Below are positions 2,299 to 29,934 of a DNA stretch of 64,000 bases, piece after piece. The notes beneath the pieces were generated by a model. It was not told the DNA's origin. It was given only the letters and a program-made list of their open reading frames with translations, and searched no databases. A program made the position numbers and the translations under genes. Position 1 is the first letter of the stretch. Every line of letters begins with the position of its first letter. The stretch is from an uncultured Pseudomonadota bacterium (lineage in GTDB: Bacteria; Chloroflexota; UBA5177; JAJPKF01), in assembly GCA_963799725.1 (NCBI GenBank), contig CAWCYJ010000026.1:5120-69119 (forward strand), read 5' to 3'.

Positions 2299-2303
2299 TA
2301 CTG

Positions 2304-3763
<1,460 letters not shown>

Positions 3764-3765
3764 CG

Positions 3766-4098
3766 TCACATGGCGGCGATGATGTCCGGCGACCGGCCGG
3801 GCTGCGGGAACCGGCCCCGCAATGCCTGCAGGAGACGGTGAATTTCATCGATACGCGCATGTATTCGCAGCAGATCGCGAGACAACTCGTGGCCGTTGAG
3901 ATCGTGCTGCCAATCCGGCGACCCCGTCATCCGGTCTGCGAGCCGGTGTAGTTGAGCGAATTCAGATTGCAGAATGCTCTCGAAGAGCCGCGCCTGCGCT
4001 ACCTCGGCAGGCTGCACGTGTCGATCCAGCACCCCGGCAGTGGTTTTCGGTGCCAGTCGGTTATGCAGAAATTCAGATGACTCCACAGGCTGCGCCAT
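3766..4098 (-). CDS. Hypothetical protein (110 aa)
   Basis: Clean ORF with non-shadow composition that fills the gap between the ferredoxin and the PPE gene. No recognisable motif. Confidence 0.5.
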   Translation of the reverse strand: MAQPVESSEFLHNRLAPKTTAGVLDRHVQPAEVAQARLFESILQSEFAQLHRLADRMTGSPDWQHDLNGHELSRDLLRIHARIDEIHRLLQALRGRFPQPGRSPDIIAAM

Positions 4099-4312
4099 GT
4101 GATACCCCTAACCCCGGCATCAGATGTTCATCACACCGCAACCTACTCCCTCTCCCGGCGAGTTACATCCATCGCTGAAAGCTTTTCCAGCTGTTCATGT
4201 TTGGGCCACGGGAGCGACACCATTGACGCGGAAGGTTTACATTCGTCAAGCCGCGGCTGCGCTGCCCCGGCAAGCAAGCCAATGCCGGAGAAGGATATGG
4301 GTCCAGTTGACG

Positions 4313-5536
4313 CTAACCGGCGAACGGGGGCCGTGACATCACGGTGGGGCGGAATCCATATCTGGGGCCAGCACCGGCAGCACCGGCACCGGCACCGGCC
4401 AGCGGCATGCCGCCCAACAGATTTCCGGCTCCCCCAGTTGCTTCCGGAGCGGCAGCTACCGAGCTGATCGGCATTGGCGCGGTGGTAGTGGGTAACGCCG
4501 CACTCGCGCCGCTCCATGCGGGTGGCACCGACAATTTGCCGACCACAGGCGCGTTACCCAAGCCGGCCGATACCGGACCGCCAGCGCCGCCACCGCCGTT
4601 ACCGAGCAGGCCACCCAAACCGCCTAAGCCGCCTGCCGCTTTCGGTGCGGCGGCGGGTGCTGCCGCACCGATCATTCCTAGGGTCTTCGCCGTCTGAACG
4701 AAGTTGTTGCCCATACCGATGCTGAAGTAGGGCAAGCCCTCGGTGTTGTAGAAGAAGCCCGCGAATGGGCTGTAGGCATTTAACAGCCCCGACAACGATG
4801 AGGGCAGGACCGACGATCCGGTCAACAGCTTCCAGATCTCTGACAACAGCGTTGGGGAGGATGTCGTCGCCGACGAGGCGGGCGTCGCGAGACTTTGCAG
4901 CGTAGTCGGCGTTGATGAGACCAAGTGTGACAGTGTCGACTGCGAGTTGCCGGCCGCGGTGGCCGCGGCTTGGGTCACCGCTGCGGCTTGAGTTGCCTGC
5001 CCGGCGGGGTTGGTGGTCTGCGCCGGGGAGGCGAACGGCGTGACCCTGGTCGACGTTGCGGCCTGGCCCGCGTAGCCGTACATCGCGCCAGCGTTTTGAG
5101 CCCACATCTCACCGTATTGCGCCTCGAGCTGCGCGATCACCGGCGTGTTCTGACCAAAGACGTTGGTCATCACCGCCTGCGCCAGCTGGGCGCGGTTGGC
5201 CGCGATCAGAGGCGGAGGCACATGCGCGGCCAACGCGGTTTCGTAAGCACCGGCTGCCGCCGCGGCTTGGGTTGCCGCGTGCTCGGCTTGCGCGGCGGTG
5301 GTACTCATCCACGTCACATAGGGTGAAGCCGCTTCCGCCATCGCCGCCGACGCCGGACCCATCCACCCATCACTGGACAGGCGCGTGATCACCGTGCCGT
5401 ACCCCGTTGCGGCGGAATTCAGCTCGCCGGCCAGCGCATTCCAGGCCGACGCGGCGGCCATCAGCGGCCCCGAACCCGGACCCGCATAGATGCGAGCGGA
5501 GTTGACCTCTGGAGGTAACGCCCCGAAATCCAGCAC
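4313..5536 (-). CDS. PPE family protein (SVP subfamily)
   Basis: N-terminus [25 protein letters not shown] with the PPE motif. It carries the GxxSVPxxW signature ([11 protein letters not shown]) and lies 9 nt downstream of its PE partner. Confidence 0.92.
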
Positions 5537-5545
5537 TACTCCTCC

Positions 5546-5845
5546 TCAGCCGGCCGCGACAGCATTGGCGGCCTCGGTGGCCGCGTACGAACCAGCGCTG
5601 GTGCCCAGCGTGTTGACGAACATCTCGTGGATCGCTGCGGCCTGGGCGCTGACTGCCTGATACATCTGGGCGTGCGCGGCGAACTGGGCCGCCGTCAGAG
5701 CCGATACCTCATCGGCCGCCGCAGGTACGACTCCCGTCGTGGGGGCCGCCGCGGCCGCGTTCTGGGCTGCCAACGCCGAGCCGATGCCGGACAAGTTGAC
5801 CGCCGCCGCCGATAAAGCTTCTGGCTGAGTCGTGACAAACGACAC
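5546..5845 (-). CDS. PE family protein (99 aa)
   Basis: GTG at 5843-5845 is preceded by GAGGAGGA and gives (M)SFVTTQPEALSAAAVNLSGIGSALAAQNAAAAAPTTGVVPAAADEVSALTAAQFAAHAQMYQ... The ORF-track start at 5860 adds 5 non-canonical residues. Confidence 0.9.
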   Translation of the reverse strand: MSFVTTQPEALSAAAVNLSGIGSALAAQNAAAAAPTTGVVPAAADEVSALTAAQFAAHAQMYQAVSAQAAAIHEMFVNTLGTSAGSYAATEAANAVAAG

Positions 5846-5947
5846 TGGATTCCTCCTCAATAACCTTCAGCCTCAATGACCTTTGGGAGGTCATTTCGTC
5901 GTTGAGATTAGTCGGCTCACGTCGCGATAAGCGCCAGCGACGCCAAG

Positions 5948-5995
5948 TATTCATTCCTGGACGGCCAGTGTTCATACATAGGTAGCACCCGTTCA
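5948..5995 (-). promoter_or_regulatory. Three phased TTCA-core direct repeats upstream of the PE-PPE operon
   Basis: TATTCA (5948-5953), TGTTCA (5969-5974) and CGTTCA (5990-5995) are spaced exactly 21 bp apart, 105-150 nt upstream of the PE start. Confidence 0.4.
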
Positions 5996-6160
5996 CTGCG
6001 AGTTTGGTTGCCCGCTGATTTAACCGCCATACCTGCGCAAACATCAGGATGTGGGCGGGGTGGCGATGGCCCACAGACGCCCGGCGGGCTACCACTGTTC
6101 GGCTATCGTGCCGAATAAAATCTTGTCGCGGATAAAGCGTCGTTGCATTGCCCCCCACGC

Positions 6161-7414
6161 TTATCCGGCGGCGGGCGGGCGTGGGATGACGGGGTAGCGG
6201 AAGCCGTATTTGTGTACGAAGCCGCCGGTGCCGCGCCGACCGATGGCCGACAACGGCATACCGCGCAGCAGCCCCGATGGGCTCCCACTTTCCTCGGCAG
6301 CACGCACCGCACTGAGCGACACCGCACCCTGTGCCGCCGGATTAATTCCCCCTGCCGCGCTGGCCCAAGTCGATGGCACCGACAGCGAACCGATCGACTC
6401 GGCCTGCCCGATACCCGCCGCTACCGGCGCACCCCCGAAGCCACCGCCTAGGCCCAGCCCGGCAAACTGCGGCGTCGGATACCAGGCACCGCCCGAACCA
6501 GCCGTGGTTCCCGCGCCGAACGTCAACTGCTGGTTGATCGAGGCGAAGAATGAGGTCATCCCGAGCCCAAAGTATGAGAACCCCACGGTTTGTTTGAGCA
6601 GCGCGGTGTAGTTGGCGGTGGTAAGGGCCGGGCCGGTGCCGATGGGCGCGGGTAGCCACGACAACCATGACGGCTGCGTGGTGGCTGTGCTAGTCGAGGT
6701 CGCAGTCCCCGTCGACGACGAAAGCGGCTGCGCTGCCTGGGGCACCGCAGAAGCCGAAACCAGTTGCGGGGCCACCGATGTGGTGGTCTGCGCCGAGGTA
6801 CCCGCCGGCGTCGCCGTGGCCTGCGCCACCGCCGCCGACTGCCCGGCCACCCCACCGGGATTGGTGGTCTGGGCCGGCTCACTAAACGGCGTCACCGTCG
6901 ACGCCGTCGCCGACGCCCCGGCATACCCATACATCGCCGCCGCATCCTGGGCCCACATCTCGGCATAAAGCGCCTCCGTGGCCATAATCGCCGGCGTGTT
7001 CTGCCCGAAAAAATTCGTCGCGATCAACGCCATCAGCAACGCCCGATTAGCCGCAATCACCGGCGGCGGCACCGTCATCGCAAACGCCGCCTCATAGGCA
7101 GCCACCGCCGCCCGAGCCTGCGAGGCGGTCTGCTCCGCCAACGCCGCCGTCGCACTCAACCACGACACATACGGCGCCGCCGCAGCCGACATCGACATCG
7201 ACGCCGGACCCACCCACGGCCCACTAGTCAACTCCGAAACCACCGAACCATAGCCGCTGGCCGCCACATTCAACTCAGCCGCCAACTCATCCCAAGCCAC
7301 CGAAGCAGCCAACAACGGCCCCGCCCCAGGACCGGCATACATCCGACCCGAATTGATCTCCGGCGGCAACACCCCGAAATCCAGCAATGAAGATGCGCTT
7401 CCTGGTATCGACAA
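6161..7414 (-). CDS. PPE family protein (SVP subfamily), tandem copy A
   Basis: [24 protein letters not shown]..., with [11 protein letters not shown]. After the start region, about the first 263 residues are identical to copy B. The track start at 7414 is a TTG that adds MSIPGSASS; an alternative TTG at 7390 gives the canonical MLDFG. Confidence 0.9.
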
Positions 7415-7607
7415 GACTCACGGTCAACGACATTGAGGACGTTAGATGTCCCTGGCGCGACGCGACGCGCTCAGCACTGGTGCATTAGCCGGCGTGCACT
7501 GTCGTTCGCGGCGAAACAATGCAGCTAGGCGCGGGCCGACAAGGTGGCGCGTGACAAAAAATCTTGTCGCGGATAAAGCGCGGTCGGCGTTGGCCTGGTC
7601 TGGTGGT

Positions 7608-8834
7608 TTATCCGGCGGACGGCGGGCGTGGGATGACGGGGTAGCGGAAGCCGTATCTGTGCACAAAACCGCCGGAGGCGCGCCGACCGATGCCCGACAG
7701 CGGCATACCCCGCAGCAGCCCAGATGGGCTCCCACCTTCCTCGACAGCACGCACCGCACTGAGCGAGACCGCCCCTTGCGCCGTCGGGCTGAGGCCTGTG
7801 GCGCCGGCCCAGCTGGGCGGCACCGACAGCTGCCCGATCGACTCGGCCTGCCCGATACCCGCCGCTACCGGCGAGCCACCCAAGCCACCGCCCAGGCCCA
7901 GCCCGGCAAACTGCGGCGTCGGATACCAGGCACCGCCCGAACCAGCCGTGGTCCCCGCGCCGAACGTCAACTGCTGGCCAATCGAGGCAATGAACTGCGA
8001 CATGCCCAGCGGGAAATACCCGAGTATCCCTGCGTTTTGTTTTAACAGTGTGGTCCAGTTATTGGTGGTAAGGGCCGGGCCGGTGCCGATGGGCGCGGGT
8101 AGCCACGACAACCATGACGGCTGCGTGGTGGCTGTGCTAGTCGAGGTCGCAGTCCCCGTCGACGACGAAAGCGGCTGCGCTGCCTGGGGCACCGCAGAAG
8201 CCGAAACCAGTTGCGGGGCCACCGATGTGGTGGTCTGCGCCGAGGTACCCGCCGGCGTCGCCGTGGCCTGCGCCACCGCCGCCGACTGCCCGGCCACCCC
8301 ACCGGGATTGGTGGTCTGGGCCGGCTCACTAAACGGCGTCACCGTCGACGCCGTCGCCGACGCCCCGGCATACCCATACATCGCCGCCGCATCCTGGGCC
8401 CACATCTCGGCATAAAGCGCCTCCGTGGCCATAATCGCCGGCGTGTTCTGCCCGAAAAAATTCGTCGCGATCAACGCCATCAGCAACGCCCGATTAGCCG
8501 CAATCACCGGCGGCGGCACCGTCATCGCAAACGCCGCCTCATAGGCAGCCACCGCCGCCCGAGCCTGCGAGGCGGTCTGCTCCGCCAACGCCGCCGTCGC
8601 ACTCAACCACGACACATACGGCGCCGCCGCAGCCGACATCGACATCGACGCCGGACCCACCCACGGCCCACTAGTCAACTCCGAAACCACCGAACCATAG
8701 CCGCTGGCCGCCACATTCAACTCAGCCGCCAACTCATCCCAAGCCACCGAAGCAGCCAACAACGGCCCCGCCCCAGGACCGGCATACATCCGACCCGAAT
8801 TGATCTCCGGCGGCAACACCCCGAAATCCAGCAC
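7608..8834 (-). CDS. PPE family protein (SVP subfamily), tandem copy B
   Basis: GTG start at 8834 is preceded by GGAGGG and gives [25 protein letters not shown]... It carries [11 protein letters not shown]. Confidence 0.92.
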
Positions 8835-9055
8835 TACATCCCTCCGTCAGCGGCCGCACGCCAACAAGTGGCCACCCAGAGCTTTTTCATGACGTCGACG
8901 TGCGAAGCGCGGTACGTGGTCACAGCCGAAATGCGCTTTCTTTCCTCGGTTACCCTCAGCGTCAACAACATTGAGTACGGATACTTGTCACTGAAACAAT
9001 CGCTCGGTTGCGAGATTAGTTGGCAATGCAGGCAATCACCGCCGCCGACGCCAAC

Positions 9056-9103
9056 TATTCATTCCTGTACAGCAACAGTTCATCGGTCAGCAACGGCTGT
9101 TCA
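9056..9103 (-). promoter_or_regulatory. Three phased TTCA-core direct repeats upstream of PPE copy B
   Basis: TATTCA (9056-9061), AGTTCA (9077-9082) and TGTTCA (9098-9103) are spaced 21 bp apart. The flanking GCCAACTATTCATTCCTG matches GCCAAGTATTCATTCCTG at 5943. Confidence 0.4.
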
Positions 9104-9176
9104 TCCGTTGTTAGGCCGACCGTCGCCGACGGGGCGACCGCAGCGTCCGACGGACGCCGACAGCAGTCCAGGTGAT

Positions 9177-9299
9177 TTACCCGCCCGCCGGCGGCACCAC
9201 GTCGGTGGTCGGCGCCGCCACGGCAGCATTTTGCGCTGTCATTGCCGATCCAATGGCTTGCAAATTTCCGGCCGCCGCCGTCAACTCCGCTGGGTGCGG
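9177..9299 (-). pseudogene. PE gene remnant (N-terminal fragment without a start, premature stop)
   Basis: The minus-strand frame reads ...PHPAELTAAAGNLQAIGSAMTAQNAAVAAPTTDVVPPAGG*. This matches PE residues ~7-45, but an in-frame stop replaces the MSFVTT start and the helix-2 part is missing. Confidence 0.6.
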
Positions 9300-9346
9300 T
9301 TAGCTATGAGTCGCTACGGGAGCGCTCGGTTGCGCTGAGCCCGCGC

Positions 9347-11635
9347 CTAGCGGCGCAGGTCGGTGGCCGCGACTTGCACGTACACACCGGTGTCTTCGGC
9401 CATCAGCAGGCCACGACCGCGCGGCAACGGGCCACCCTTCATCTTCCCGCGGATGAAGCCCTCGTCGGGGTCGGCGTCCATGACCAGCAACGGCGCATTG
9501 GCCTGGTGCAGCGCCCGAAGCATCGGGTCGCTGCCTGCCGACGACCAGCCGCCGAAGGTGCGGGTGACGATGACATGCAAGCCGACATCGGCTGCCCGCG
9601 TCACCCAAGGCGCGGCCTTCTGCAGTGGCGAGTCGAAGCCCGGCGGCAGCTGCTGGACATCGTCGATGATCAAGAAGATCTCCGGCCCGCTCCACCACGA
9701 CCGCGACAGCAGCTCTTCGGCTGATAGGCCCGGCGGTGGTTCGCGGCTGGCCAGCATTGCCCCCAGCTCGTCCATCATCGCCGACACTCCGTCGAGGTTG
9801 TAGGCGAACTTCTCGACGTAGTCGGTGCCGAGCACGGTCAGCAGCTGACGGCGTGGGTCGACCAGCCACACCTGCGCGGAGGGTTTCGATGTCGGCGGCG
9901 CGATGCTCGCTCCCGGTGCGTACACCCGTCCGATCTCGCACATGATCGTAGCCAGCGTCGTGGTACGCCCGCACTCCCGCCGGCCCGTCACCATCAGATG
10001 CGCGTTCTCGGCGAAATTCAAATACACCGGCTGCAGATCCAATTCGTTGATGGCCCAAGCGATTCCGCCCGCGCCGACGCCCTCGCGGCGATCGGCTGCG
10101 GCCAACGCCTGCACCTGCTCCAGCCCGAATCGCGCCGGCAGCCTGCGCACTGGACGTGCTTCGCCGACGGCCACCCGGCTAACGGCTTCGGCGACGCTGT
10201 CAGACTCGAAAACCCTGTCCGGCGTGTTCGTCAGCGCGGGCCGGGCCACCAGCGTGTGCAGACCAGATTGCGGATCGCTGTCCAGCCGTACGTAATTCAC
10301 CGCGACCATGCCGCGGCCCGGCTTGACCGGGACGTCCTTGGCGAACCGGGAGCGCACGAGTTTCGCGTCCTCCACCGCAGCCAGCCGCAGCTCGATTCGG
10401 GACCCGAAGCCGCTGCGCACCGGCGGTCGCAGCTCCGATTCGCGGTCGGCGGTGGCGATCACGTGCACCCCGAACGACGGCCCCTGGTTGATGATCTGGT
10501 TCACCTGCTCGATCAGGATCTCGTTTTCTTCGGCCAGCGCCCGGTAGTTGTCGATCACCAGATAGACATCGCCGAACATGTCAGGCACGCGACCGGGGGC
10601 GCCGCCGAACTTACGCCGCCTGAACACGTCCATCGATGGGATGTCGTACTCCAGGAAAGTGCGTTTGCGCTCGCGAAGCAGTGCCAGCAGCTCAGCCACC
10701 GTGCGACGAACGCCGTACGGGTCGGTGGAGCCGACAACCTCGCCGACGTGCGGCAGCCTGGCCACCGTCATGAGCGCGGTGCTGCTGTAGGCCAGGACGT
10801 AGAACTGGACCTGCTCGGGCGTGTGGGTCATCGCAGCCGAGCAGATCAGCGTCTGCAACGCGGTGGTCTTGCCCGCACCGCCGGCGCCCAGGATCAGCAC
10901 GTTGGCACCGGCCCCGGAGGTGTCCACCGTCCACGGCGGCTGGTCGTGCTTGTACGGGCGGTCGATGATCCCGATTGGGAACACCAAGTTCCTGGCCGTG
11001 CCGTAGTCCTCCTGCCAGGGCTTGCCGCGGTAGCGGTTGACTATCTCGTCGACCGCTACCGGCACGTCCAGCGGCGGATGCCATAACCGGTAGGGCTCGA
11101 AGTCGATTCGGCGCAACTGGTCGATGATCACCGTGCCGACTTTGGGCGTTCGGATCGCTTCTTCTTCTTCGTCCTCTTCGTCGGCGGCACTGCTGGTGGG
11201 AAACACCTCGCCGTTATCGCTGAGTACCTCACCGTTCGTTTCGAAGTCCGGGCCACTGACGCTGACCTCGATGGGGGTGAACCCGGTGGTGAACAGTTGC
11301 GGGCGAATGTAATCGACGGAATGCGTCAGCGGCGTTTGCTCGTCGTCGAGTGACACTCCGCGGCGGTAGTCGCGCCACAGGAACTCCGCCTGGAATCGGA
11401 TGATCTCCTCGAGGCTCTTGCGGAAATAGCCCAGCCCGGCCTGAGCGGGCAGGTTGACCGCGTTCGGCACGCCGGCCGCCTGTGCAGCGCCGGCGGTCCG
11501 CGCTTTCAGCACCAGCCGGTAACCCATGTTCTCCATGAGCTTTTCGGCTCGGCTCTCGATGGCTTTCATCCACAGAGAGCCCACGCCTCCGCGGCCAGAT
11601 CGTTGAGGGAGAGCCCTTGCGGTGACAGCCGGCAT
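9347..11635 (-). CDS. eccC: ESX type VII secretion FtsK/SpoIIIE-family ATPase EccC, 5'-truncated (C-terminal ~760 aa only)
   Basis: Two P-loops (LGAGGAGKTTAL, TGRRECGRTTTL). The segment IESRAEKLMENMGYRLVLKARTAG resembles the end of ATPase domain 1. Full EccC proteins have TM helices plus three ATPase domains. The frame stays open up to the compositional junction, and the ATG at 11635 is probably fortuitous. Confidence 0.85.
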   Translation of the reverse strand: MPAVTARALPQRSGRGGVGSLWMKAIESRAEKLMENMGYRLVLKARTAGAAQAAGVPNAVNLPAQAGLGYFRKSLEEIIRFQAEFLWRDYRRGVSLDDEQTPLTHSVDYIRPQLFTTGFTPIEVSVSGPDFETNGEVLSDNGEVFPTSSAADEEDEEEEAIRTPKVGTVIIDQLRRIDFEPYRLWHPPLDVPVAVDEIVNRYRGKPWQEDYGTARNLVFPIGIIDRPYKHDQPPWTVDTSGAGANVLILGAGGAGKTTALQTLICSAAMTHTPEQVQFYVLAYSSTALMTVARLPHVGEVVGSTDPYGVRRTVAELLALLRERKRTFLEYDIPSMDVFRRRKFGGAPGRVPDMFGDVYLVIDNYRALAEENEILIEQVNQIINQGPSFGVHVIATADRESELRPPVRSGFGSRIELRLAAVEDAKLVRSRFAKDVPVKPGRGMVAVNYVRLDSDPQSGLHTLVARPALTNTPDRVFESDSVAEAVSRVAVGEARPVRRLPARFGLEQVQALAAADRREGVGAGGIAWAINELDLQPVYLNFAENAHLMVTGRRECGRTTTLATIMCEIGRVYAPGASIAPPTSKPSAQVWLVDPRRQLLTVLGTDYVEKFAYNLDGVSAMMDELGAMLASREPPPGLSAEELLSRSWWSGPEIFLIIDDVQQLPPGFDSPLQKAAPWVTRAADVGLHVIVTRTFGGWSSAGSDPMLRALHQANAPLLVMDADPDEGFIRGKMKGGPLPRGRGLLMAEDTGVYVQVAATDLRR

Positions 11636-11646
11636 GCTAGCTGTTG

Positions 11647-12327
11647 CTAACTATGCTGGATGTTAACGATTAGCCAGATGCCACCAGTCCCGTGTTTTGC
11701 CAGCTGCGAAACCGTGATCGTAAACTGTTGGCCCTGGTAACTGATGACGACCTTGATCGTCGGCTGTCCTGAGCTGTTCGTAAACGGGGTTGCGGTCGGA
11801 GTAGCAGTTGGAGCCGGAGATACGAAGGTATAGGTACCAGTGAAACCGTAGTTCTTAAGGGTCGTTTTCACTGCTTGGTATGGGTTCAGATAGACGGTAT
11901 ATGCACTTTGACCTTGAGTCGCCGCCGTCTGAATGTGTTGGATCTGTGACTTCGGTTGGGTAATGATGCCTGTACGTGGCGCAGTGGACGCCGTGGGGCT
12001 CGGAGTTGGCGTGGCCGTTGGGCTAGGAGTCGGCGTGGGGGTTGCGTGAGTACGAGTTGGGGTTGGCCTCTTCGTAGGTGCAGGCCTGGTTGGCGGTGGC
12101 TTCGTTGGGACGGGCGTCGTAGGAGCAGGTTTGGTCGGTACCGTCTTGGTATGAACGGGTTTCGTTGGAACCACCGTCGGGGTATGGTGGTGGCCCTTCT
12201 TGCTGCCATTCTTCGCCTGAGCGGCAAGTACGAAACCCAGTACGACGGCGACGATGATTAGGGCAAGGATCAGCGGAAGAAGCCACTTGTACCGTACAAA
12301 AAACGGCTGTTGGATCTCCTCAGTCAC
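11647..12327 (-). CDS. Single-pass membrane protein with a Pro/Thr-rich linker and a small C-terminal domain
   Basis: TM segment (WLLPLILALIIVAVVLGFVLAA) followed by a long PT-rich tract (TPTVVPTKPVHTKTVPTKPAPTTPVPTKPPPTRPAPTKRPTPT...) and a ~100-aa globular tail. Confidence 0.6.
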   Translation of the reverse strand: MTEEIQQPFFVRYKWLLPLILALIIVAVVLGFVLAAQAKNGSKKGHHHTPTVVPTKPVHTKTVPTKPAPTTPVPTKPPPTRPAPTKRPTPTRTHATPTPTPSPTATPTPSPTASTAPRTGIITQPKSQIQHIQTAATQGQSAYTVYLNPYQAVKTTLKNYGFTGTYTFVSPAPTATPTATPFTNSSGQPTIKVVISYQGQQFTITVSQLAKHGTGGIWLIVNIQHS

Positions 12328-12437
12328 TGCCTGCCCCCAGTGTCAAATGTTCTCGCGATCCCGAAAGTACCTGCCGCTCCGACTTGACCACCCTATGCTC
12401 AAAACTTCCTCCACTCAGCCGGCAACCGCCGGCCCTG

Positions 12438-13202
12438 CTAATGCTTGAAGCAAATATGTGGGAGTTTAGCTGTAACCTGGTGGCCGTAGCCCGAGTACTT
12501 GAGGGTACCTTGGATCCGAGCCTTCCCCACACCTGCCACTTTTACCGATCCAGACTCTTGGACTTGATGCAGGATGAACGAGCGCTGGTCGATGTAGAGC
12601 TGGACTACGAGTTTCGATTGCGCGTTCCCGGACTTTGCTTGGAAATTCCCTCGAACGATCCAGTCGGTGTGTCCATCCACCTTCGATTGTCCAACTGTCG
12701 CCGGATGTTGAAGAGCGAAGCTGGGAACGGCCCAGTACATCCCATTGGCTTTGAGGGTGGTCTTCTTGCAGAACCACTGGTGGTTTCCGTGTGCTGCCAC
12801 CCAGGCTCCAATCACGACGTTCTGCAATTTCTTAACGTTCTTGATTTGCTTGCTTACGGTCGTGGGGATCTTGAAGTGCCAGCTCTCTTTTAGGGTGTGC
12901 GATTTCCAGGAAAACGCCGCTTGAAGCTGACGGCCATCGTATACGTTGTTTTTCGTGCTTGACACCGTACCAGCCTCGAACACGCTGTTCTTCCCGGCTG
13001 TTTTTGCGTACGACGCAGCCAGCAGGTGGCTGGCAGTTGGAATCGTACTGGTGGGGGAGGGGCTCACGGTCGGAGTGGCGGCAGCCTTCCCCGGCGGGGG
13101 CGCAGCAAGACCGCCCGTTGATCTGAGACCAAAAGAACCAACGATCACGATAAAGACTCCGGCAGCCAAGGCCAGAGCCGCAACAAAATAGCGACTTTTC
13201 AC
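12438..13202 (-). CDS. Membrane-anchored or secreted hypothetical protein
   Basis: GTG at 13202 follows GAGAGG. An N-terminal hydrophobic anchor (YFVAALALAAGVFIVIVGSF) and a PT/S-rich linker are present. The ORF-track start at 13247 adds a Cys-rich, non-signal extension. Confidence 0.55.
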   Translation of the reverse strand: MKSRYFVAALALAAGVFIVIVGSFGLRSTGGLAAPPPGKAAATPTVSPSPTSTIPTASHLLAASYAKTAGKNSVFEAGTVSSTKNNVYDGRQLQAAFSWKSHTLKESWHFKIPTTVSKQIKNVKKLQNVVIGAWVAAHGNHQWFCKKTTLKANGMYWAVPSFALQHPATVGQSKVDGHTDWIVRGNFQAKSGNAQSKLVVQLYIDQRSFILHQVQESGSVKVAGVGKARIQGTLKYSGYGHQVTAKLPHICFKH

Positions 13203-13389
13203 AGGCAAAACCTCTCGGTTATGGTAACAGCACACTCGACGCATCACAAGGGCCTTCGGCTACTTACATAGAAGCTTGAGTCTCAAGGCAGCCGAAATTT
13301 GCGGCTGTTACACTCTATTCGGCCAGCACATCTTGCGACGATATGGCCTTTGGGCAAGTTTCTTGCCATAGTCCGCACTTGACCAATCG

Positions 13390-14533
13390 TTGCAGGGCCG
13401 CTATCATGTGCACCGGGGAGTTGTTGTTTTCTTTGAGAATTCGATTCATGGAGTACACTTGTTGAATCCGGTTGCCGGCATTGAGCGTCTGGGCATCATT
13501 ATGGAGCCCGAGCCCGGGGATCCCACGGAGGCCTTTGGCGTGCTTAACCCGGCCGTAGCTCGCGGTCGGGACGGCAATTTGTACCTGTTCGCCAGAGTCG
13601 TGGCCGACGGTAACTACTCCCGAATCCGAATGGCTCGGGTCATCTTTGACGATGCAGGACGGCCCTCCAGCCTCGAACGGATGGGTTTCGTCCTCGAGCC
13701 CCTAACGCCGTATGAAACTCACGGAATCGGGAACGGCGGTTGTGAAGATCCTCGTATTACCTTTGTGCCCGCCATCGACCGTTATGTGATGGCTTACACG
13801 GGCTTTGGACAAACGGGTCCCCGGATAGCATTGGCCATCTCCTACGATCTCTTTACTTGGGAGCGGCTCGGCATCGTGTCGTTCGGACCTCAGGACGGAA
13901 TCGATTTTGACGGATTCGACGACAAGGATGCGTTCTTCTTTCCTGAGCCGGTTCTCGCCCCGGATGGTGTCCTGTCGCTGGCATGTGCACATAGGCCGAT
14001 GACGGGCGTTGATCAGGATGGGAAGACTTCCAAGCAGCTCGCAAATCTACCAGGAAGCATCTGGGTCTCCTACGTACCTGTCAGCGAGGCCATAGCCCGA
14101 CCGCAAGCCCTTCTAACCCTGCGACAGCACCAGCTGGTGCTGAAACCCGAATACCCCTGGGAGCAGGTCAAGATCGGAGGAGGAACGCCACCGATCTCCA
14201 TCCCGTGTGGCTGGCTGTTACTGCACCATGGGATCGAAAATCTTTCTGAGCCGGGTGGGCCTCGACGCCTGCGGTATACGGCCGGAGCTTTCGTCCTCGA
14301 CCGGTTGGATCTCACTCGGGTGATCTGGCGATCCTCCGAGCCGGTTATGACTCCTGATAGTGCTCAAGAAGTCTTCGGCATCGTCAACAACGTCGTTTTC
14401 CCGACTGGCAGTCGACCTCATTGACGAACACACAGTCGACGTGTACTACGGGATGGCTGATGCTCGAATCGGAGTTGCCCGGATGTGGCTACGACCCGAG
14501 GCCTGCCAGGAGGACGCTACCGAAGCCGCCTGA
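13390..14533 (+). pseudogene. GH130-family glycosidase/phosphorylase (DUF377-type), apparent +1 frameshift near 14,405-14,412
   Basis: The sequence GVLNPAVARGRDGNLYLFARVVADGNYSRIRMARV...GGCEDPRITFV...YVMAYTG...NNVVFPTG is typical GH130. The expected C-terminus VDLIDEHTVDVYYGMADARIGVARM continues in the next frame to a stop at 14531-14533. The start codon is uncertain. Confidence 0.7.
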
Positions 14534-14917
14534 AGCCCTCGCTACTAGTTGTTTCGTCTCCGACGCCAACCGGTGAGCGCCTTCAGAAGCAGCCGCGAGG
14601 CGCATCCTATAGGGTTGTGGACTGGTGTGTATAACCCTGTGGGTCTTTTTGTGAAATTTTGCCAAAAACCACTGTGGAAAATGTGGATGAATCGGTTGAT
14701 TGAGTGTTCGGCTTGCGCTCATATCCAGCAAATACAACGATTTTTCTTGCTTAACATAATCTTGTCGACGTTGGTGCGAATCCACAGGAGGGGTTGCGTC
14801 TTTTCGCCAGTTTGATAGAGTCAAACTTAGCGAATGGCTCCGGATCGTTCAATCAAATGCAGCGATGCTTGAACGGTTCGGAGCAGCTCCAACCAAAGCC
14901 GTCCTCCTTTCCGTCCT

Positions 14918-14960
14918 CCCCCCGGTCGAATCCCTAACCCGACCGGGGGGTTCCCCTTTT
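14918..14960. terminator. Strong GC hairpin between convergent genes (bidirectional terminator candidate)
   Basis: CCCCCCGGTCG (14918-14928) pairs perfectly with CGACCGGGGGG (14940-14950), giving an 11-bp stem and 11-nt loop. TTCCCCTTTT follows on the + strand, and an A-rich tract sits on the other side for the minus strand. Confidence 0.6.
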
Positions 14961-14993
14961 CCTGGACCTTCGCCCGGCGTCGGGTCTTCGGAT

Positions 14994-15599
14994 CTAATCC
15001 TGGGGCTTGGTACGATTCACCACCCCATCCACGATCGAGCTCAAATCCCGAGCCCGATCCATCAGGCCCCGGTCTAGCGCTCCTTGATCTACATTGATGC
15101 GCACGAGATCCTCCGCTGAATGGGTGGCCGCTTGAGCCAATGACAGCGCCGCGAGAACGTCGCCTTTCAGGTTTCGGTTCCCCAACAGCAATAGGCTCTC
15201 GGCCATAGCAGCCAGCTGCGCGCCACCCTCGGCGATGGCAAGTGGAACCCTCACCGCCTCCGTAAAGGTCGACTTCAGGGATCCTCCCGTGTCGTTTCGT
15301 CCCGGCTGCCGAAGGGCGGCGAGCACAGAACGATACGCTGCGGCGTCAGCATCGGCGAGATCGGCTGCCTGGACTCTTAGTCGATCGGCCTTGGCTGCCA
15401 TCGCGTCGACGCCCTCTATGTGATTGGACGAGAATCTTGCCGCCATACCAACCAATCCGGCCGCCAAAGCCAGAGCTATCGCAGCGCACGCCCCACCGCC
15501 GGGTGCCGGGGTTCGATCGCCGACCTTTGCCAGGAAGTCGCCAAGGGTAAGGTCCGCAAATGGAGCATCAATCGGAGACTGTGGAGTCGGTACTTCCAT
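14994..15599 (-). CDS. Cyclodeaminase/cyclohydrolase family protein (FTCD C-terminal-like, methenyl-THF cyclohydrolase type)
   Basis: TPAPGGGACAAIALALAAGLVGMAA is the hallmark of the formiminotransferase-cyclodeaminase C domain. It lies 27 nt downstream of fhs on the same strand. Confidence 0.75.
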   Translation of the reverse strand: MEVPTPQSPIDAPFADLTLGDFLAKVGDRTPAPGGGACAAIALALAAGLVGMAARFSSNHIEGVDAMAAKADRLRVQAADLADADAAAYRSVLAALRQPGRNDTGGSLKSTFTEAVRVPLAIAEGGAQLAAMAESLLLLGNRNLKGDVLAALSLAQAATHSAEDLVRINVDQGALDRGLMDRARDLSSIVDGVVNRTKPQD

Positions 15600-15626
15600 T
15601 ACTCAGAAGCCTCTCTCGCCTGGACC

Positions 15627-17369
15627 CTATGAAAGTCCCACGATGTCGCCGTCCTCGTCGATATCGATTCGTTCGGCGCCGGGATGCGAGCCGAGTCCCG
15701 GCATCGTGCGCATGTCGCCACAGATGGGATAGACGAAACCGGCGCCAACCGAAGCTCTCACCTCTCGGACAGGTAGTGTCCAGGCTGCCGGTGCTCCCTT
15801 GAGCTTAGGATCAGAGCTAAGCGAGAGGTGGGTCTTTGCGATGCAGACAGGGAGTGAGCCAAAGCCTGCCTTCTCATAGGTCGCCAGCTGCCGCGTTGCC
15901 TCGCTGGAGTACTCCACATCGGCTGCTCCGTAGACTCTTGTCGCCACAGTTTCGATCTTCTCTTTCAGAGGAATATCGGTGGGATAGAGGAAGTGGAAGT
16001 CCGAAGGCTCGTCGGCGGCTTGAGCCACGGCCTCTGCCAGCTCTGCGCCACCTGCTCCTCCTTGCGCGACATGATACGTAACAGCCGAGCGCACGCCGGC
16101 CTCCTGAGCGATCCGTCTGATCACGGCATGCTCACTCGGATGATCCGTTGGAAATGCGTTAACTGCCACAACGGGCGACACCCCGTGAATCCTGACATTT
16201 TCGATTTGCTTGCGCAGATTGGCCGCACCCAGCTCCACGTCGTCGGGATTCTCGGCCAGCAGCTCTGGTGGGAGCGGCCTTCCGGCTACGATTCTGTACT
16301 TATCGGAGTGTGCTTTTAGCCCACGAACCGTGGCTACCAGCACTGCCGCGTCGGGTTTGAGCCCCGAAACACGACATTTGATGTTGAAGAAGCGTTCCGC
16401 ACCCATGTCCGCGCCGAACCCCGCCTCTGTTACCAGGAAGTCGCCTGTGTGAATTCCGATCAGGTCGGCCACAACCGAGGAGTTGCCCGTGGCGATGTTT
16501 CCAAATGGTCCCGAGTGCACGAGGACCGGCGTGTTTTCGATCGTCTGCAGCAGGTTGGGCTTGATCGCCTCTCGGAGAATCACCGCCATGGCGCCCGCGG
16601 CTTTCAGCTCCTCCGCAGTCACCGGATCTCCGCTGCCGGTGTAGCCGATAACGATCCGGCCGAGCCGCTCTCGCAGATCCTTCAGTGACCTGGACAGAGC
16701 GAGGATGGCCATGACCTCGGAGGCCGCCGTGATATCGAATCCGGTCTGGCGAGGCACTCCGTCCTCCCGAGAGCCAAGGCCGATAACGATGTTTCGTAGC
16801 GCTCGGTCGTTGACGTCGAGCACTCTTCTCCAGGTGATGTTGTGGGGATCGATCCGTAACTCGTTGCCGTTGTAGAGGTGATTGTCGATCATGGCGGAGA
16901 GCTGATTGTGAGCGGCGGTCACGGCATGCATGTCGCCGGTTAGATGCAGGTTGAGAACCTCCATGGGAACCGCCTGGCTATATCCGCCTCCAGCTGCTCC
17001 GCCCTTGATGCCGAATGTCGGTCCCATCGATGGCTGCCGGATGGCGACTGTGGCTCTCTTGCCGATGTGCTTGAAGGCCTGTCCGAGCCCTACTGTGACG
17101 GTTGTCTTGCCCTCGCCGAGAGGTGTGGGCGTTATGGCGCTGACCACCACGTACTTCGCCTTTGGTCGGTTGGCCAGCGAATCGATGGCATCGAGGGAGA
17201 TCTTCATGACGCCTCTGCCGTATGGCTCCAGCAGGTCGAGATCTAGCCCCATGCCGCCTGCTATCTCCTCTAGCGGCTCGAGCCGTGCCGAGCGAGCGAT
17301 GTCGAGGTCTGTGGGCATGGGTCTCAGAGCTTTCGTTTGCAGCTCAGGCGCGCGTGGTGTGGAACTCAT
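15627..17369 (-). CDS. fhs: Formate--tetrahydrofolate ligase
   Basis: At 580 aa it has PTPLGEGKTTVTVGLGQAF, GIKGGAAGGGY and the conserved C-terminal half (PVCIAKTHLSLSSDP). Confidence 0.95.
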   Translation of the reverse strand: MSSTPRAPELQTKALRPMPTDLDIARSARLEPLEEIAGGMGLDLDLLEPYGRGVMKISLDAIDSLANRPKAKYVVVSAITPTPLGEGKTTVTVGLGQAFKHIGKRATVAIRQPSMGPTFGIKGGAAGGGYSQAVPMEVLNLHLTGDMHAVTAAHNQLSAMIDNHLYNGNELRIDPHNITWRRVLDVNDRALRNIVIGLGSREDGVPRQTGFDITAASEVMAILALSRSLKDLRERLGRIVIGYTGSGDPVTAEELKAAGAMAVILREAIKPNLLQTIENTPVLVHSGPFGNIATGNSSVVADLIGIHTGDFLVTEAGFGADMGAERFFNIKCRVSGLKPDAAVLVATVRGLKAHSDKYRIVAGRPLPPELLAENPDDVELGAANLRKQIENVRIHGVSPVVAVNAFPTDHPSEHAVIRRIAQEAGVRSAVTYHVAQGGAGGAELAEAVAQAADEPSDFHFLYPTDIPLKEKIETVATRVYGAADVEYSSEATRQLATYEKAGFGSLPVCIAKTHLSLSSDPKLKGAPAAWTLPVREVRASVGAGFVYPICGDMRTMPGLGSHPGAERIDIDEDGDIVGLS

Positions 17370-17627
17370 CGGGTGGACTCCTCAGCGGCAAGGCGCCGTA
17401 TTAACCATTGAAGGTCGTTTTTGGCCACGCATCAGAAGGCCGAATGCCTGCCCTATAGCATCCTACGAACTCTGAGGGTCGCAGAAGCGGCCGGGTGAGC
17501 CGGTGCCTTGTTAAATGTCGTCGGGTCGAAGCTGGAGTGAGAGGGCCTACGTCCGTGCCTCGCCCGCGGCAGTTAAGCTCACGACGTTTAGTACACTTGC
17601 GGCAGGAATAACTTTCTGAGGAATCCA

Positions 17628-18239
17628 TTGAGACGAGGCTGGACCTGGCGTCTGTGCTTCCTGCTTGCGCTGCCACTCGTCTTATCCGCATGCTCGATTG
17701 GATCTTTGGGCAGCTCGAACCCGACGCCTACGCCTACCGCAGTTCCGACTCCGATCCCAACCGCGACGCCCGCACCCAATGCGGCGGCCGCTCTCACATC
17801 CGTCAAGACGATTGTCTGTTGGGGCCAGATCCCACAAAACATCAGTGGCTGTCCTACGCACTCGACCACGAGTCCTGGACCGTGTTACCAGGGATCGCCT
17901 CAGTGGTCGCCGCAAGCCGGCTGTCCCGTGACCTCCAAGCTTGAGAGGCGGCTGCGACAGAATCCTACCTCAGGCACAGGTGGGGGATCAGATCCCATAT
18001 GCCGGTGTCAGAACGTTCCGTCGGGCCTTTCGTTTACCGAGGCAAAAACGACCGCAAGCCGCGACATTATCAAGGTAGTCTGGAACTTTGGGGGACCATC
18101 CAGTTCCAAGAATCCATCCAACCCTGCCATTGATTACGTGGTGCTAAACCAGAAGGGCGGGTGGCTGGTGGATGACAGCTACTGCGACGGTTATCCCTCA
18201 ACCACGATCTACAAAACACCGGTCGAGCCGTGCGCCTGA
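17628..18239 (+). CDS. Cys-rich lipoprotein, unknown function
   Basis: TTG start after GAGGA. Signal peptide with lipobox LVLSAC, then a PT-rich linker. The mature domain has ten further Cys residues. Confidence 0.6.
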   Translation: MRRGWTWRLCFLLALPLVLSACSIGSLGSSNPTPTPTAVPTPIPTATPAPNAAAALTSVKTIVCWGQIPQNISGCPTHSTTSPGPCYQGSPQWSPQAGCPVTSKLERRLRQNPTSGTGGGSDPICRCQNVPSGLSFTEAKTTASRDIIKVVWNFGGPSSSKNPSNPAIDYVVLNQKGGWLVDDSYCDGYPSTTIYKTPVEPCA

Positions 18240-18264
18240 CGTGGTGTCGGGAAGCTAGTTGACG

Positions 18265-18585
18265 CTAGCCTTTTTGCTCGTCGGTGGGCGCACCATCTTG
18301 CTTTCCACCTGGAATCTGATCCAGCTCCGCCTGTAGCTGTGCCACCCTCGCCTGGGTTTGTGCTTCGTCGACGTCTCGGGCATGCTGAAATGCGGGATCA
18401 GGACCTTCAGTCGCGTCTACGACACTGAACGGCGAAGCGTAGCCGGCATTCCCAATCCCCAGTTGAGGCGTCATGCCCATGGAAAGCTGCTCGTCCTCGA
18501 TCGACCGAAACGCGCCCTCGCGCTTGGCTTCTTCAATCTCCGTTTTCTTCCAAGCCCGGCGTATCCAGTTCCAGAACGATCCCAT
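18265..18585 (-). CDS. Hypothetical protein (106 aa)
   Basis: Isolated ORF with reasonable composition and no motif recognised. Confidence 0.4.
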   Translation of the reverse strand: MGSFWNWIRRAWKKTEIEEAKREGAFRSIEDEQLSMGMTPQLGIGNAGYASPFSVVDATEGPDPAFQHARDVDEAQTQARVAQLQAELDQIPGGKQDGAPTDEQKG

Positions 18586-18808
18586 GGGTATGTCTCCTAA
18601 TGATCACGACGTAAAGTATTTGCGATTAGTCCAGCTTACTCCGTTGACCTCTTGGAACGCTATAGTTGCCGGACGTTTGGAGACGTGGCGGACGCCTTAG
18701 AAGTGCGTGACGAGACTCTGGAGGCCACAAGAGCTGGCATTCAGGTGATTGGCCATAATGGGCGAGAGATGGGCGGCTAGCCTAGGGATCTCCAACTCAT
18801 AACAGGAT

Positions 18809-19426
18809 GTGGAGCTGATGCCCATAACGAGCGACTCTGAGCCGAAGGAAGTTCTCCACGCCTATCTTCAGATGGGACGCGATGCACTGGTTTGGAAGAC
18901 GCAGGGCCTTTCCGAGTATGAGATCCGTCGTCCGCTGACACGCACGGGCACCAACCTATTGGGACTCATAAAGCATCTAGCCACTGGCGAGCTTGGATAC
19001 TTCGGGGAAGTTTTTGGGCGGCCTTCCACGGACCGTCTGACGTGGATGGAGCCTGATGCCGAAGCGAATGATGACATGTGGGCGACGCCGGCAGAGTCGA
19101 GGGAGTCGATCTTGGGACTGTACCAGCGGGCGCGCGCACATGCAGATGCCACCATCGATGCGCTACCCCTCGAGGCACGTGGCCGCGTTCCATGGTGGCC
19201 AGAGGATAGGAATGAAGTAACGCTACAGCGTGTGCTTGTCCACATGATCGCTGAGACTCATCGGCATGCCGGCCACGCCGACATCGTCCGGGAGCTTATA
19301 GACGGCGCAGCCGGCCATAGAGCCGACAGTGACAACATGCCGACGGTTGACGAGGCTTGGTGGACGGCTTATCGCAACCGGCTGGAAGACGCAGCCCGAG
19401 AGGCGTCCGAACTGGAGAAAGGTTAG
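18809..19426 (+). CDS. DinB-family (DUF664-type) metal-dependent protein
   Basis: The His-triad context typical of DinB/DUF664 proteins is present: LIKHLATGELGYF ... VLVHMIAETHRHAGHADIVRELIDG. Confidence 0.75.
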   Translation: MELMPITSDSEPKEVLHAYLQMGRDALVWKTQGLSEYEIRRPLTRTGTNLLGLIKHLATGELGYFGEVFGRPSTDRLTWMEPDAEANDDMWATPAESRESILGLYQRARAHADATIDALPLEARGRVPWWPEDRNEVTLQRVLVHMIAETHRHAGHADIVRELIDGAAGHRADSDNMPTVDEAWWTAYRNRLEDAAREASELEKG

Positions 19427-29904: not shown

Positions 29905-29934
29905 CATCCCATAGGGCCGCCGCCGTCTTCTTCC

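What the first reader, a model, noticed from the sequence alone, without database searches (positions are those of the whole stretch)
11600..11700. Organism-level junction at ~11,636-11,646: a mycobacterial ESX locus is cut mid-eccC and abuts unrelated, lower-GC DNA
Seen: up to ~11,635 every gene is a mycobacterial hallmark (PE, PPE, EccC, CYP143-type P450 with ferredoxin, Pkn kinase). That DNA is very GC-rich, and the ORF track is crowded with Arg-rich antisense shadow ORFs. From 11,647 on, the gene content is different (fhs, GH130, LPXTG protein, PT-rich linkers). GC is visibly lower there, intergenic stretches are AT-rich, and shadow ORFs thin out.

The eccC frame is open right up to the switch and begins inside ATPase domain 1. 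Only two P-loops are present, whereas EccC proteins carry TM helices plus three FtsK/SpoIIIE ATPase domains. Roughly the N-terminal 600 aa are therefore missing. The stop codon of the next gene (11647) is only ~11 nt from the last eccC codon. I see no IS element, integrase, tRNA, or inverted or direct repeat at the joint.

Inference: a contig concatenation, chimeric assembly or contaminant join is much more likely than biology. If it were real, it would be a >50-kb inter-phylum insertion that inactivated an ESX secretion ATPase.
Basis: partly seen in the sequence, partly recalled or inferred. Interest (0 to 1): 0.75.

Follow-up and report, generated by a model that had tools for sequence, protein, structure and literature searches.

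The report
Chimeric contig: Mycobacterium joined to Chloroflexota
A deposited 103-kb metagenome contig switches abruptly, in the middle of a secretion-ATPase gene, from Mycobacterium DNA to DNA of an unrelated soil bacterium (Chloroflexota); this is almost certainly an assembly error and not a gene transfer.

Summary

- **Left flank.** Window 1-11562 is a native-order Mycobacterium ESX-5 locus: PE, kinase, CYP143, ferredoxin, PE/PPE array and the 3' 2.2 kb of eccC5. It is 80-87% nt identical to Mycobacterium genomes.
- **Breakpoint.** Homology to about 40 Mycobacterium loci stops at the same base, 11562. That point is inside ATPase domain 1, and about 650 N-terminal codons are missing.
- **Right flank.** From 11563 to 64000 the DNA is Chloroflexota-like: GC 52-62%, GC3 58-69%, a different tetranucleotide signature, and relatives named Chloroflexota.
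- **Spacer.** The 84 nt between the break and the next stop codon scores compositionally as right-flank DNA. The "eccC" ATG at 11635 is therefore fortuitous.
- **One contig.** Proteins from both sides, including the exact 762-aa fusion ORF, are recorded on a single NCBI contig of 103,482 bp. The joint is inside a deposited contig, not between concatenated records.
- **No sign of a real insertion.** There is no repeat, tRNA, integrase or IS at the joint. A near-identical copy of the flanking gene sits on another NCBI contig without the mycobacterial genes.

Verdict: an inter-genome misassembly. It is an artefact of low biological interest, but the record should be flagged. Read mapping, which I could not do, would be the proof.

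The parts
1..11562 (.). Mycobacterium segment: an ESX-5-type locus in native gene order. It probably continues left of the window.
   Evidence: Collinear blastn matches to Mycobacterium loci L003, L043, L040, L004 and L010. Tetranucleotide correlation is 0.89-0.91 with Mycobacterium loci and 0.41-0.57 with the right flank. GC is 62-67%.
1..282 (-). PE gene that starts at 282 and runs off the window start, with 94 codons visible.
   Evidence: Translation MSFVTTQPEALSAAAANLQGIG.... It is 86% nt identical to a PE gene in L003.
694..2298 (+). Ser/Thr protein kinase (Pkn-type).
   Evidence: Pfam Pkinase, E = 4.9e-34. Recorded on the 103,482-bp NCBI contig.
2304..3500 (-). Cytochrome P450 CYP143.
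   Evidence: E = 9e-201 to PDB 8amo, 'Putative cytochrome P450 143'.
3488..3763 (+). Small 3Fe-4S ferredoxin, divergent from CYP143. The likely start is 3551 or 3569.
   Evidence: Translation ...[28 protein letters not shown]...[15 protein letters not shown]. The block is conserved at 85% nt in L004.
4313..8834 (-). PE/PPE array: PPE-SVP genes at 4313-5536, 6161-7414 and 7608-8834, and PE at 5546-5860.
   Evidence: Pfam PPE (E = 7e-65 to 2e-68) plus PPE-SVP. Pfam PE, E = 8e-34.
9177..9284 (-). 35-aa PE remnant just downstream of eccC.
   Evidence: Translation MTAAAGNLQAIGSAMTAQNAAVAAPTTDVVPPAGG.
9347..11562 (-). 3' part of eccC5: the end of ATPase domain 1 plus complete domains 2 and 3, and the stop codon. 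About 650 N-terminal codons are missing, covering the TM region and the D1 Walker A.
   Evidence: 80-87% nt identity to 40 listed Mycobacterium loci, all ending at window 11560-11562. Protein homology starts at IESRAEKL. Full-length relatives are 1393-1397 aa, with D1 GTTGSGKS about 150 aa upstream of the break. Pfam FtsK_SpoIIIE.
11562..11563 (.). Breakpoint of the chimera (within 2 nt either way).
   Evidence: All Mycobacterium alignments end here. The relatives read ...LMMASQT|IESRAEKL, while the window reads ...GSLWMKA|IESRAEKL.
11563..11646 (.). 84-nt spacer. It is most likely the native 3' flank of the Chloroflexota 226-aa gene. Its left 73 nt supply the spurious first 25 codons and the ATG (11635) of the called 762-aa ORF.
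   Evidence: No match in 76 fetched loci or elsewhere in the window, nor in plasmids or viral contigs. The third-order Markov log-odds is -4.7, typical of right-flank 84-mers (mean -3.0); only 0.85% of left-flank 84-mers score that low.
11647..12327 (-). 226-aa membrane-anchored, PT-rich protein of a Chloroflexota-specific family. It is the first gene of the right flank.
   Evidence: Homologues are named Chloroflexota or Chloroflexi bacterium. Syntenic with L070/L071. No Pfam hit.
12438..13244 (-). 268-aa PT-rich hypothetical protein.
   Evidence: 36% aa identity to the syntenic 245-aa gene of L070. Recorded on the 103,482-bp contig.
13408..14530 (+). GH130 glycoside phosphorylase, frameshifted near 14408.
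   Evidence: Pfam Glyco_hydro_130. 67% aa identity to L070 GH130, with the last 41 residues in another frame.
11563..64000 (.). Chloroflexota-like chromosomal segment. It carries fhs, FTCD_C, ispF, tRNA-Leu, a sigma factor, wecB, ABC transporters and GGDEF, among others.
   Evidence: Pfam annotation. The best named fhs hit is Chloroflexota at 82%. Each 5-kb chunk correlates 0.75-0.89 with the rest of the right flank and 0.40-0.54 with the left. Correlation with the L070 relative is 0.855.

Best explanation
The window is part of a chimeric metagenome contig. During assembly, or through a chimeric template or read fed to the assembler, a path through a Mycobacterium genome was joined to a path through a Chloroflexota genome from the same sample.

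The Mycobacterium path ends inside eccC5 at window 11562. The Chloroflexota path starts 84 nt downstream of a 226-aa gene, at window 11563. A gene caller then read through the joint and produced a fictitious 762-aa 'EccC' whose first 25 codons are Chloroflexota intergenic DNA. Nothing functions here, because the two halves were never on one molecule in a cell.

**Shown:**
- the two flanks have different taxonomic and compositional identities;
- the breakpoint is placed to within 2 nt;
- both flanks lie on one deposited contig;
- no mobile-element features are present.

**Inferred:**
- the join arose in silico or in the library rather than in vivo;
- the 84-nt spacer belongs to the Chloroflexota parent.
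For: 1. **Same deposited contig.** The exact 762-aa joint-spanning ORF, the kinase, the 226-aa and 268-aa ORFs, GH130, fhs and four far-right proteins are each recorded from NCBI on one contig of 103,482 bp.
2. **Left flank is bona fide Mycobacterium.**
   - 66 Mycobacteriaceae-type loci match, mostly Mycobacterium isolates and soil MAGs. The 40 alignments listed show 80-87% nt identity over eccC.
   - The flank is collinear over the whole 11.5 kb.
   - It contains CYP143, ferredoxin, PE and PPE-SVP genes.
3. **Sharp break in a conserved gene.** Homology stops at one base, between ...MMASQT and IESRAEKL, a stretch identical in the five relatives translated. All listed nucleotide alignments end there too.
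4. **No amelioration and no decay.** GC3 is 74-84% and the tetranucleotide correlation with Mycobacterium loci is 0.89-0.91. The remaining eccC, the three PPE genes, the P450 and the kinase are intact ORFs.
5. **Right flank is Chloroflexota-like housekeeping DNA.** This rests on named relatives, GH130-hyp-226aa synteny with L070/L071 and composition. In those relatives the 226-aa homologue is followed by luciferase-like, Rieske and Iso_dh genes, none of which is in the window.
6. **Single breakpoint.** The 84-nt spacer is compositionally right-flank-like.
7. **No insertion signatures.** There are no direct or inverted repeats, tRNA, integrase or transposase at the joint (Pfam).
8. **A sister copy without the mycobacterial genes.** A copy of the 226-aa protein with 2 substitutions is on another NCBI contig of 41,186 bp. 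The 90% clusters of eccC and the kinase contain no second NCBI member, and those of the kinase, 268-aa ORF, GH130, FTCD_C and fhs have one member each. That contig therefore carries different DNA beyond the gene.
9. **Known artefact.** Chimeric contigs are a recognised product of metagenome assembly (PMC8201837; PMC11261854).
Against: - No reads, coverage or assembly metadata could be examined, so the artefact is inferred and not observed.
- The parent of the 84-nt spacer was not found in any collection. No shared k-mer or microhomology that would explain the misjoin could be demonstrated.
- The sister-contig argument rests on cluster membership, not on its DNA, which could not be retrieved.
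- GUNC's authors call misassemblies 'relatively rare' compared with mis-binning.
- Only one junction is visible. What lies left of window position 1 on the 103-kb contig is unknown.
Confidence: 0.9

Rival explanations
1. Post-assembly join. Two genuine, separate contigs, one Mycobacterium and one Chloroflexota, were placed in the same bin and then merged end to end without an N gap by a scaffolder, gap-closer or submission script. The error would then lie in scaffolding or processing, not in the assembly graph.
For: - Both flanks are on one deposited 103,482-bp record, and the joint has no N run.
- There is no detectable overlap or repeat at the joint, as expected for a blunt end-to-end join.
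- The Chloroflexota side ends in non-coding DNA, and the sister contig also seems to end within about 1 kb of here. This suggests a natural contig end in this region.
Against: - Scaffolders normally leave Ns.
- The data cannot distinguish this from a graph-level chimera.
- It is still an artefact, so the biological conclusion does not change.
Confidence: 0.07
2. Real inter-phylum event. A Chloroflexota genome acquired at least 11.5 kb of Mycobacterium ESX-5 DNA, or a Mycobacterium acquired at least 52 kb of Chloroflexota DNA inside eccC5, very recently and by illegitimate recombination.
For: - The joint is contiguous sequence inside a deposited contig.
- The mycobacterial genes other than eccC are intact, as expected for a very recent transfer.
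Against: - There is no amelioration at all.
- There are no integrase, IS, tRNA or repeat signatures.
- The break falls inside a gene rather than at an element boundary.
- The right flank is housekeeping chromosome (fhs, ispF, tRNA-Leu, sigma factor), not an island.
- A near-identical sister copy of the flanking gene lacks the mycobacterial neighbours.
- From established knowledge, ESX-5/EccC5 is needed for viability in slow-growing mycobacteria, so a Mycobacterium host with this disruption is unlikely. PE/PPE substrates would also be useless in a Chloroflexota host that lacks the rest of ESX-5.
Confidence: 0.02
3. Three-part chimera. The 84-nt spacer (11563-11646) comes from a third source, such as another genome or a low-quality stretch of a single bridging read. 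There would then be two breakpoints, at 11562/3 and about 11646/7.
For: The spacer matches nothing retrievable. Its GC of 63% lies between the two flanks.
Against: - Its Markov log-odds is typical of the right flank.
- Genes are normally followed by some intergenic DNA: the equivalent spacers are 61 nt in L070 and 101 nt in L073.
- One breakpoint is more parsimonious than two.
Confidence: 0.1

Closest known systems
Inter-genome chimeric contig (misassembly) in metagenome assemblies, as described for MAG quality control (GUNC, PMC8201837; assembler benchmark, PMC11261854)
   Same: One contig carries genes of two unrelated lineages. Taxonomy and composition switch abruptly, no mobile-element features are present, and a gene is cut at the joint.
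   Different: The diagnostic read-level evidence (coverage step, clipped reads) was not available. No shared repeat that could have caused the misjoin was found.
ESX-5 type VII secretion locus of slow-growing mycobacteria (eccC5, cyp143, ferredoxin, PE/PPE array; M. tuberculosis Rv1783-Rv1791 region, from established knowledge)
   Same: The left flank carries the eccC5 3' part, CYP143 (E = 9e-201 to 8amo), a 3Fe-4S ferredoxin, PE and PPE-SVP genes. It is collinear with ESX-5 loci of Mycobacterium MAGs and of the M. celatum, M. kyorinense and M. shimoidei genomes.
   Different: - eccC5 lacks about 650 N-terminal codons, and eccB5 and everything upstream are absent.
- The gene order places the PE/PPE array between eccC and cyp143, as in L003, L043 and L040.
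- The best nucleotide identity is only 87%, so the species is not among the reference genomes.
Genomic island or horizontally transferred block
   Same: It shows a compositional step and foreign gene content next to native genes.
   Different: There is no integrase, tRNA target, direct repeats or IS. Only one boundary is seen. The 'foreign' block is a core locus of another phylum at its native composition, and the 'host' side is ordinary housekeeping DNA.

Membership tests
Chimeric (misassembled) metagenome contig | Genes of two unrelated lineages lie on one contiguous record. | tested here: met
   The left flank gives Mycobacterium loci at 80-87% nt. The right flank has Chloroflexota-named relatives and synteny. 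Both are on one 103,482-bp NCBI contig.
Chimeric (misassembled) metagenome contig | Oligonucleotide composition and GC3 switch abruptly at the same point as taxonomy. | tested here: met
   The 84-nt spacer assigns to the right flank.
Chimeric (misassembled) metagenome contig | The joint is not supported by reads: a coverage step, clipped or discordant reads, or a single bridging read. | not testable with these tools
   No reads or assembly metadata were available, and the source record could not be fetched.
Chimeric (misassembled) metagenome contig | Close relatives of each parent continue natively past the joint. | tested here: inconclusive
   **Mycobacterium side: met.** All full-length relatives continue into an intact EccC5.

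**Chloroflexota side: indirect only.**
- Distant relatives continue into luciferase-like and Rieske genes.
- The near-identical sister contig lacks the mycobacterial genes by cluster membership, but its DNA was not retrievable.
Genomic island / HGT insertion | Integrase or transposase, a tRNA or other att target, and flanking direct repeats. | tested here: not met
   No repeats at the joint. The only tRNA is 13 kb away. No recombinase Pfam domain was found in any ORF scanned.
Genomic island / HGT insertion | Host DNA lies on both sides of the foreign block. | not testable with these tools
   The window starts inside a mycobacterial PE gene.
Functional EccC (T7SS FtsK/SpoIIIE ATPase) | N-terminal TM helices plus three ATPase domains with the D1 Walker A. 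| tested here: not met
   Only the D2 (GAGGAGKT) and D3 (GRTT) P-loops are present. About 650 N-terminal residues, including D1 GTTGSGKS, are absent. The first 25 codons are non-homologous.
Mycobacterial ESX-5 locus (fragment) | eccC5 is linked to cyp143, ferredoxin and PE/PPE-SVP genes, collinear with Mycobacterium genomes. | tested here: met

The most novel reading that the evidence does not exclude
The junction is physically real. A soil Chloroflexota bacterium very recently captured at least 11.5 kb of a Mycobacterium ESX-5 locus (PE/PPE, CYP143, kinase, truncated eccC5) by illegitimate recombination. Alternatively, a Mycobacterium carries a Chloroflexota block of more than 52 kb inserted in eccC5.
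Probability: 0.02. Interest if true: 0.85.

Novelty: not a real feature. Interest (0 to 1): 0.08.

Why it matters
Biologically it does not matter, because the join is an artefact. It does matter for data hygiene.

- A public NCBI contig of 103 kb appears to fuse two phyla. It carries a fictitious 762-aa 'EccC' protein that has already entered protein collections.
- Left uncorrected, such a record can create false claims that PE/PPE, ESX or CYP143 genes occur in Chloroflexota, or the reverse. It can also inflate HGT estimates and contaminate taxonomic reference sets.
- For the scan itself, this is a useful positive control. A tool-free reader correctly spotted a chimera from sequence alone.

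Tried and rejected
**Attempts to fetch the source contig**
- Exact-protein look-up of four window proteins: none on record.
- A 42-mer across 11618-11659: absent from genome contigs and metagenome contigs.

**Attempts to get the native Chloroflexota continuation**
- The sister protein P0019 could not be located on a retrievable contig.
- A back-translated search of the 226-aa C-terminus in metagenome contigs found no relative.
- An fhs relative on a 55-kb ENA contig (L077) turned out not to be syntenic.

**Attempts to identify the 84-nt spacer**
- There were no hits in the 76 fetched loci or elsewhere in the window, in plasmids or in viral contigs.
- I considered and rejected the idea that it is a noisy or frameshifted version of eccC. 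No 7-mer-seeded match to the upstream eccC sequence of any relative was found.
- I considered that the SphI/NheI/HpaI sites at 11632-11667 hint at a synthetic linker. I rejected this because the hexamers occur 19, 12 and 4 times in the window and nothing matches in the plasmid collection.

**Other points**
- The tool reported a match from query residue 12. I rejected this as a spurious joining of pieces after inspecting the alignments.
- fhs proved a weak taxonomic marker, at 80-82% identity to both Chloroflexota and Actinomycetota.
- The GGDEF protein search returned no organism names.
- No terminator was found downstream of the 226-aa gene.
Full report

Yes, apart from the exact coordinate and one gene claim.

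In 1-kb windows, GC is 62-67% over 1-11000 and 52-62% over 12000-64000. At 200-nt resolution the fall occurs between about 11,500 and 11,700.

Pfam confirms the left-hand genes:
- a Ser/Thr kinase (694-2298);
- a P450 (2304-3743);
- three PPE-SVP genes;
- an FtsK/SpoIIIE protein (9347-11635);
- a PE gene at 5546-5860.

A second PE gene starts at 282 and runs off the window start. The P450 matches M. tuberculosis CYP143 structures at E = 9e-201. A 3Fe-4S ferredoxin (CVGHAQC...CP) lies divergently at 3488-3763.

To the right are two PT-rich proteins without Pfam hits, then GH130, FTCD_C and fhs.

**2. Where exactly is the joint?**

A back-translated search with the 762-aa ORF returned 66 Mycobacteriaceae-type loci, mostly Mycobacterium isolates and soil MAGs. 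In blastn, the best 40 alignments are 80-87% identical over about 2.2 kb. Every one of them ends at window 11560-11562.

At protein level the relatives read ...GRAYWIHLMMASQT|IESRAEKLMENMGYRL..., while the window reads ...GRGGVGSLWMKA|IESRAEKLMENMGYRL.... eccC homology therefore starts at codon 26 of the ORF. The ATG at 11635 and the first 25 codons are not eccC.

Full-length relatives are 1393-1397 aa, with about 650 residues upstream of the break. The D1 Walker A (GTTGSGKS) lies about 150 residues upstream of it, and only the D2 and D3 P-loops remain in the window.

The 84 nt at 11563-11646 match nothing in the 76 loci fetched or elsewhere in the window, nor in plasmids or viral contigs. A third-order Markov log-odds score (Mycobacterium model minus right-flank model) gives -4.7 for these 84 nt. 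Left-flank 84-mers average +3.0 (sd 2.8) and right-flank 84-mers average -3.0 (sd 2.5). Only 0.85% of left-flank 84-mers score as low.

The simplest reading is a single breakpoint at 11562/11563. The 84 nt would then be the native 3' flank of the 226-aa gene. Equivalent spacers in relatives are 61 and 101 nt.

**3. What are the two sides?**

*Left.* The whole of 1-11562 is collinear with ESX-5 regions of Mycobacterium loci L003, L043, L040, L004 and L010. The order is eccC5, PE/PPE array, ferredoxin/CYP143, kinase, and a further PE.

Its tetranucleotide usage deviation correlates 0.89-0.91 with Mycobacterium loci, but only 0.41-0.57 with the right flank. GC3 of its genes is 74-84%. The best nucleotide identity is 87%, so the species is not among the GTDB representatives. 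The closest relatives are soil MAGs and the M. celatum, M. kyorinense and M. shimoidei genomes.

*Right.*
- The 226-aa protein belongs to a small family whose named members are all 'Chloroflexota/Chloroflexi bacterium'.
- The best named fhs hit is Chloroflexota at 82%, but actinobacterial fhs reach 80-81%, so fhs alone is weak evidence.
- The order GH130, hypothetical, 226-aa homologue is conserved in L070/L071, with 67%, 36% and 34% aa identity.
- Each 5-kb chunk of the right flank correlates 0.75-0.89 with the rest of that flank and 0.40-0.54 with the left. Correlation with L070 is 0.855. GC3 is 58-69%.
- The gene content is ordinary chromosome: fhs, ispF, tRNA-Leu, an ECF-type sigma factor, wecB, Zn and other ABC transporters, MFS and GGDEF.

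I rate the phylum assignment as probable, not certain.

**4. Is the joint inside a real record, or an artefact of how the window was built?**

It is inside a real record. Exact-sequence look-ups covered the joint-spanning 762-aa ORF, the kinase, the 226-aa and 268-aa ORFs, the 338-aa GH130 call, FTCD_C, fhs, and proteins at 25, 43, 52 and 61 kb. Each is recorded from NCBI on one contig whose length is 103,482 bp.

The junction therefore exists in a deposited contig, and a gene caller has already turned it into a fictitious protein.

**5. Artefact or biology?**

Nothing at the joint looks like a mobile element or a recombination site.
- There are no direct or inverted repeats beyond chance.
- There is no tRNA; the only one is at 25008-25094.
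- No recombinase domains were found.
- No terminator was found.

Other observations point the same way.
- The break falls in the middle of one of the most conserved peptides of EccC5.
- The mycobacterial DNA is completely unameliorated and its other genes are intact.
- In distant relatives, the 226-aa homologue is followed by luciferase-like, Rieske and isocitrate/isopropylmalate dehydrogenase genes, none of which occurs anywhere in the window.
- A protein differing from the 226-aa ORF by two residues (P0019) is on another NCBI contig of 41,186 bp.

The 90% clusters of the 268-aa ORF, GH130, FTCD_C, fhs and the kinase each have a single member. The eccC cluster has no second NCBI member. That sister contig therefore shares neither the right-hand neighbours nor the mycobacterial genes, and must carry other DNA beyond the 226-aa gene. 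This is indirect, because its DNA could not be fetched. It does suggest that the assembly graph is broken within about 1 kb of this site in two assemblies, and that the mycobacterial neighbour is unique to this contig.

Chimeric contigs are a recognised product of metagenome assembly. GUNC's authors define them, while calling them rarer than mis-binning (PMC8201837). A benchmark reports from about 3 to more than 20 chimeric contigs per genome, depending on the assembler (PMC11261854).

**6. Mechanism**

I conclude, with confidence of about 0.9, that a Mycobacterium path and a Chloroflexota path from one sample were joined at 11562/11563. The cause was either the assembler or a chimeric template or read.

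A blunt post-assembly join without Ns is a minor variant (about 0.07). A three-part chimera remains possible for the 84-nt spacer (about 0.1, and not exclusive of the main explanation). A genuine inter-phylum transfer is not excluded without reads, but I rate it at about 0.02.

From established knowledge, ESX-5/EccC5 is required in slow-growing mycobacteria, and PE/PPE proteins need the full ESX-5 machinery. Neither direction of a real event makes biological sense.

**7. Comparison with what is known, and novelty**

The left flank is a fragment of a known kind of locus, mycobacterial ESX-5, from an unsampled species. The right flank is an ordinary Chloroflexota chromosomal segment. The 'feature', meaning the junction itself, is not a biological feature. 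Its interest is low, and the practical value lies in flagging the record.

**8. What could not be done**

I could not do read mapping, inspect the remaining 39.5 kb of the contig, or align the sister contig. These are listed under decisive next steps.

Noticed in passing
window 13408-14530 (+): The GH130 gene appears frameshifted near 14408. The L070 homologue aligns at 67% aa up to 14409, and its last 41 residues continue in another frame to 14530. This is either an indel error in the assembly or a real pseudogene.
   Followed up: partly
window 8835-9346, especially 9177-9284 (-): Only a 35-aa PE remnant lies directly downstream of eccC, and no intact ORF fills the 0.5-kb gap. Relatives have PE/PPE genes here.
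   Followed up: partly
window 29185-29904 (+): One ORF combines a Clp_N domain (residues 5-56) with IspF/YgbB (residues 81-233). It may be an unusual fusion or an over-extended ORF start.
   Followed up: no
window 11647-12327 (-) and protein P0019: A near-identical copy of the 226-aa protein (2 substitutions) is on a different NCBI contig of 41,186 bp. That contig shares none of the other window genes tested. Two assemblies seem to break within about 1 kb of the same place.
   Followed up: partly
window 15627-17369 (-): The Chloroflexota-side fhs is 80-82% aa identical to fhs of many Actinomycetota, including Carbonactinospora, Streptomyces and Actinomadura. This is unusually high cross-phylum similarity and could reflect older gene exchange.
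   Followed up: no
window 11632-11667: An overlapping SphI/NheI site (GCATGCTAGC) and an HpaI site sit next to the joint. The hexamers occur 19, 12 and 4 times in the window, and the spacer matches no plasmid, so this is judged to be chance.
   Followed up: yes
window 11647-13244 (-): Two adjacent genes encode membrane-anchored proteins with long Pro/Thr-rich linkers and no Pfam domain. Some homologues of the 226-aa protein carry PF27998. The function of this family is unknown.
   Followed up: no
window 1-282 (-): The window begins about 5 codons before the end of a PE gene. The mycobacterial block therefore either continues further left on the 103-kb contig or ends at a contig edge inside a PE gene.
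   Followed up: no
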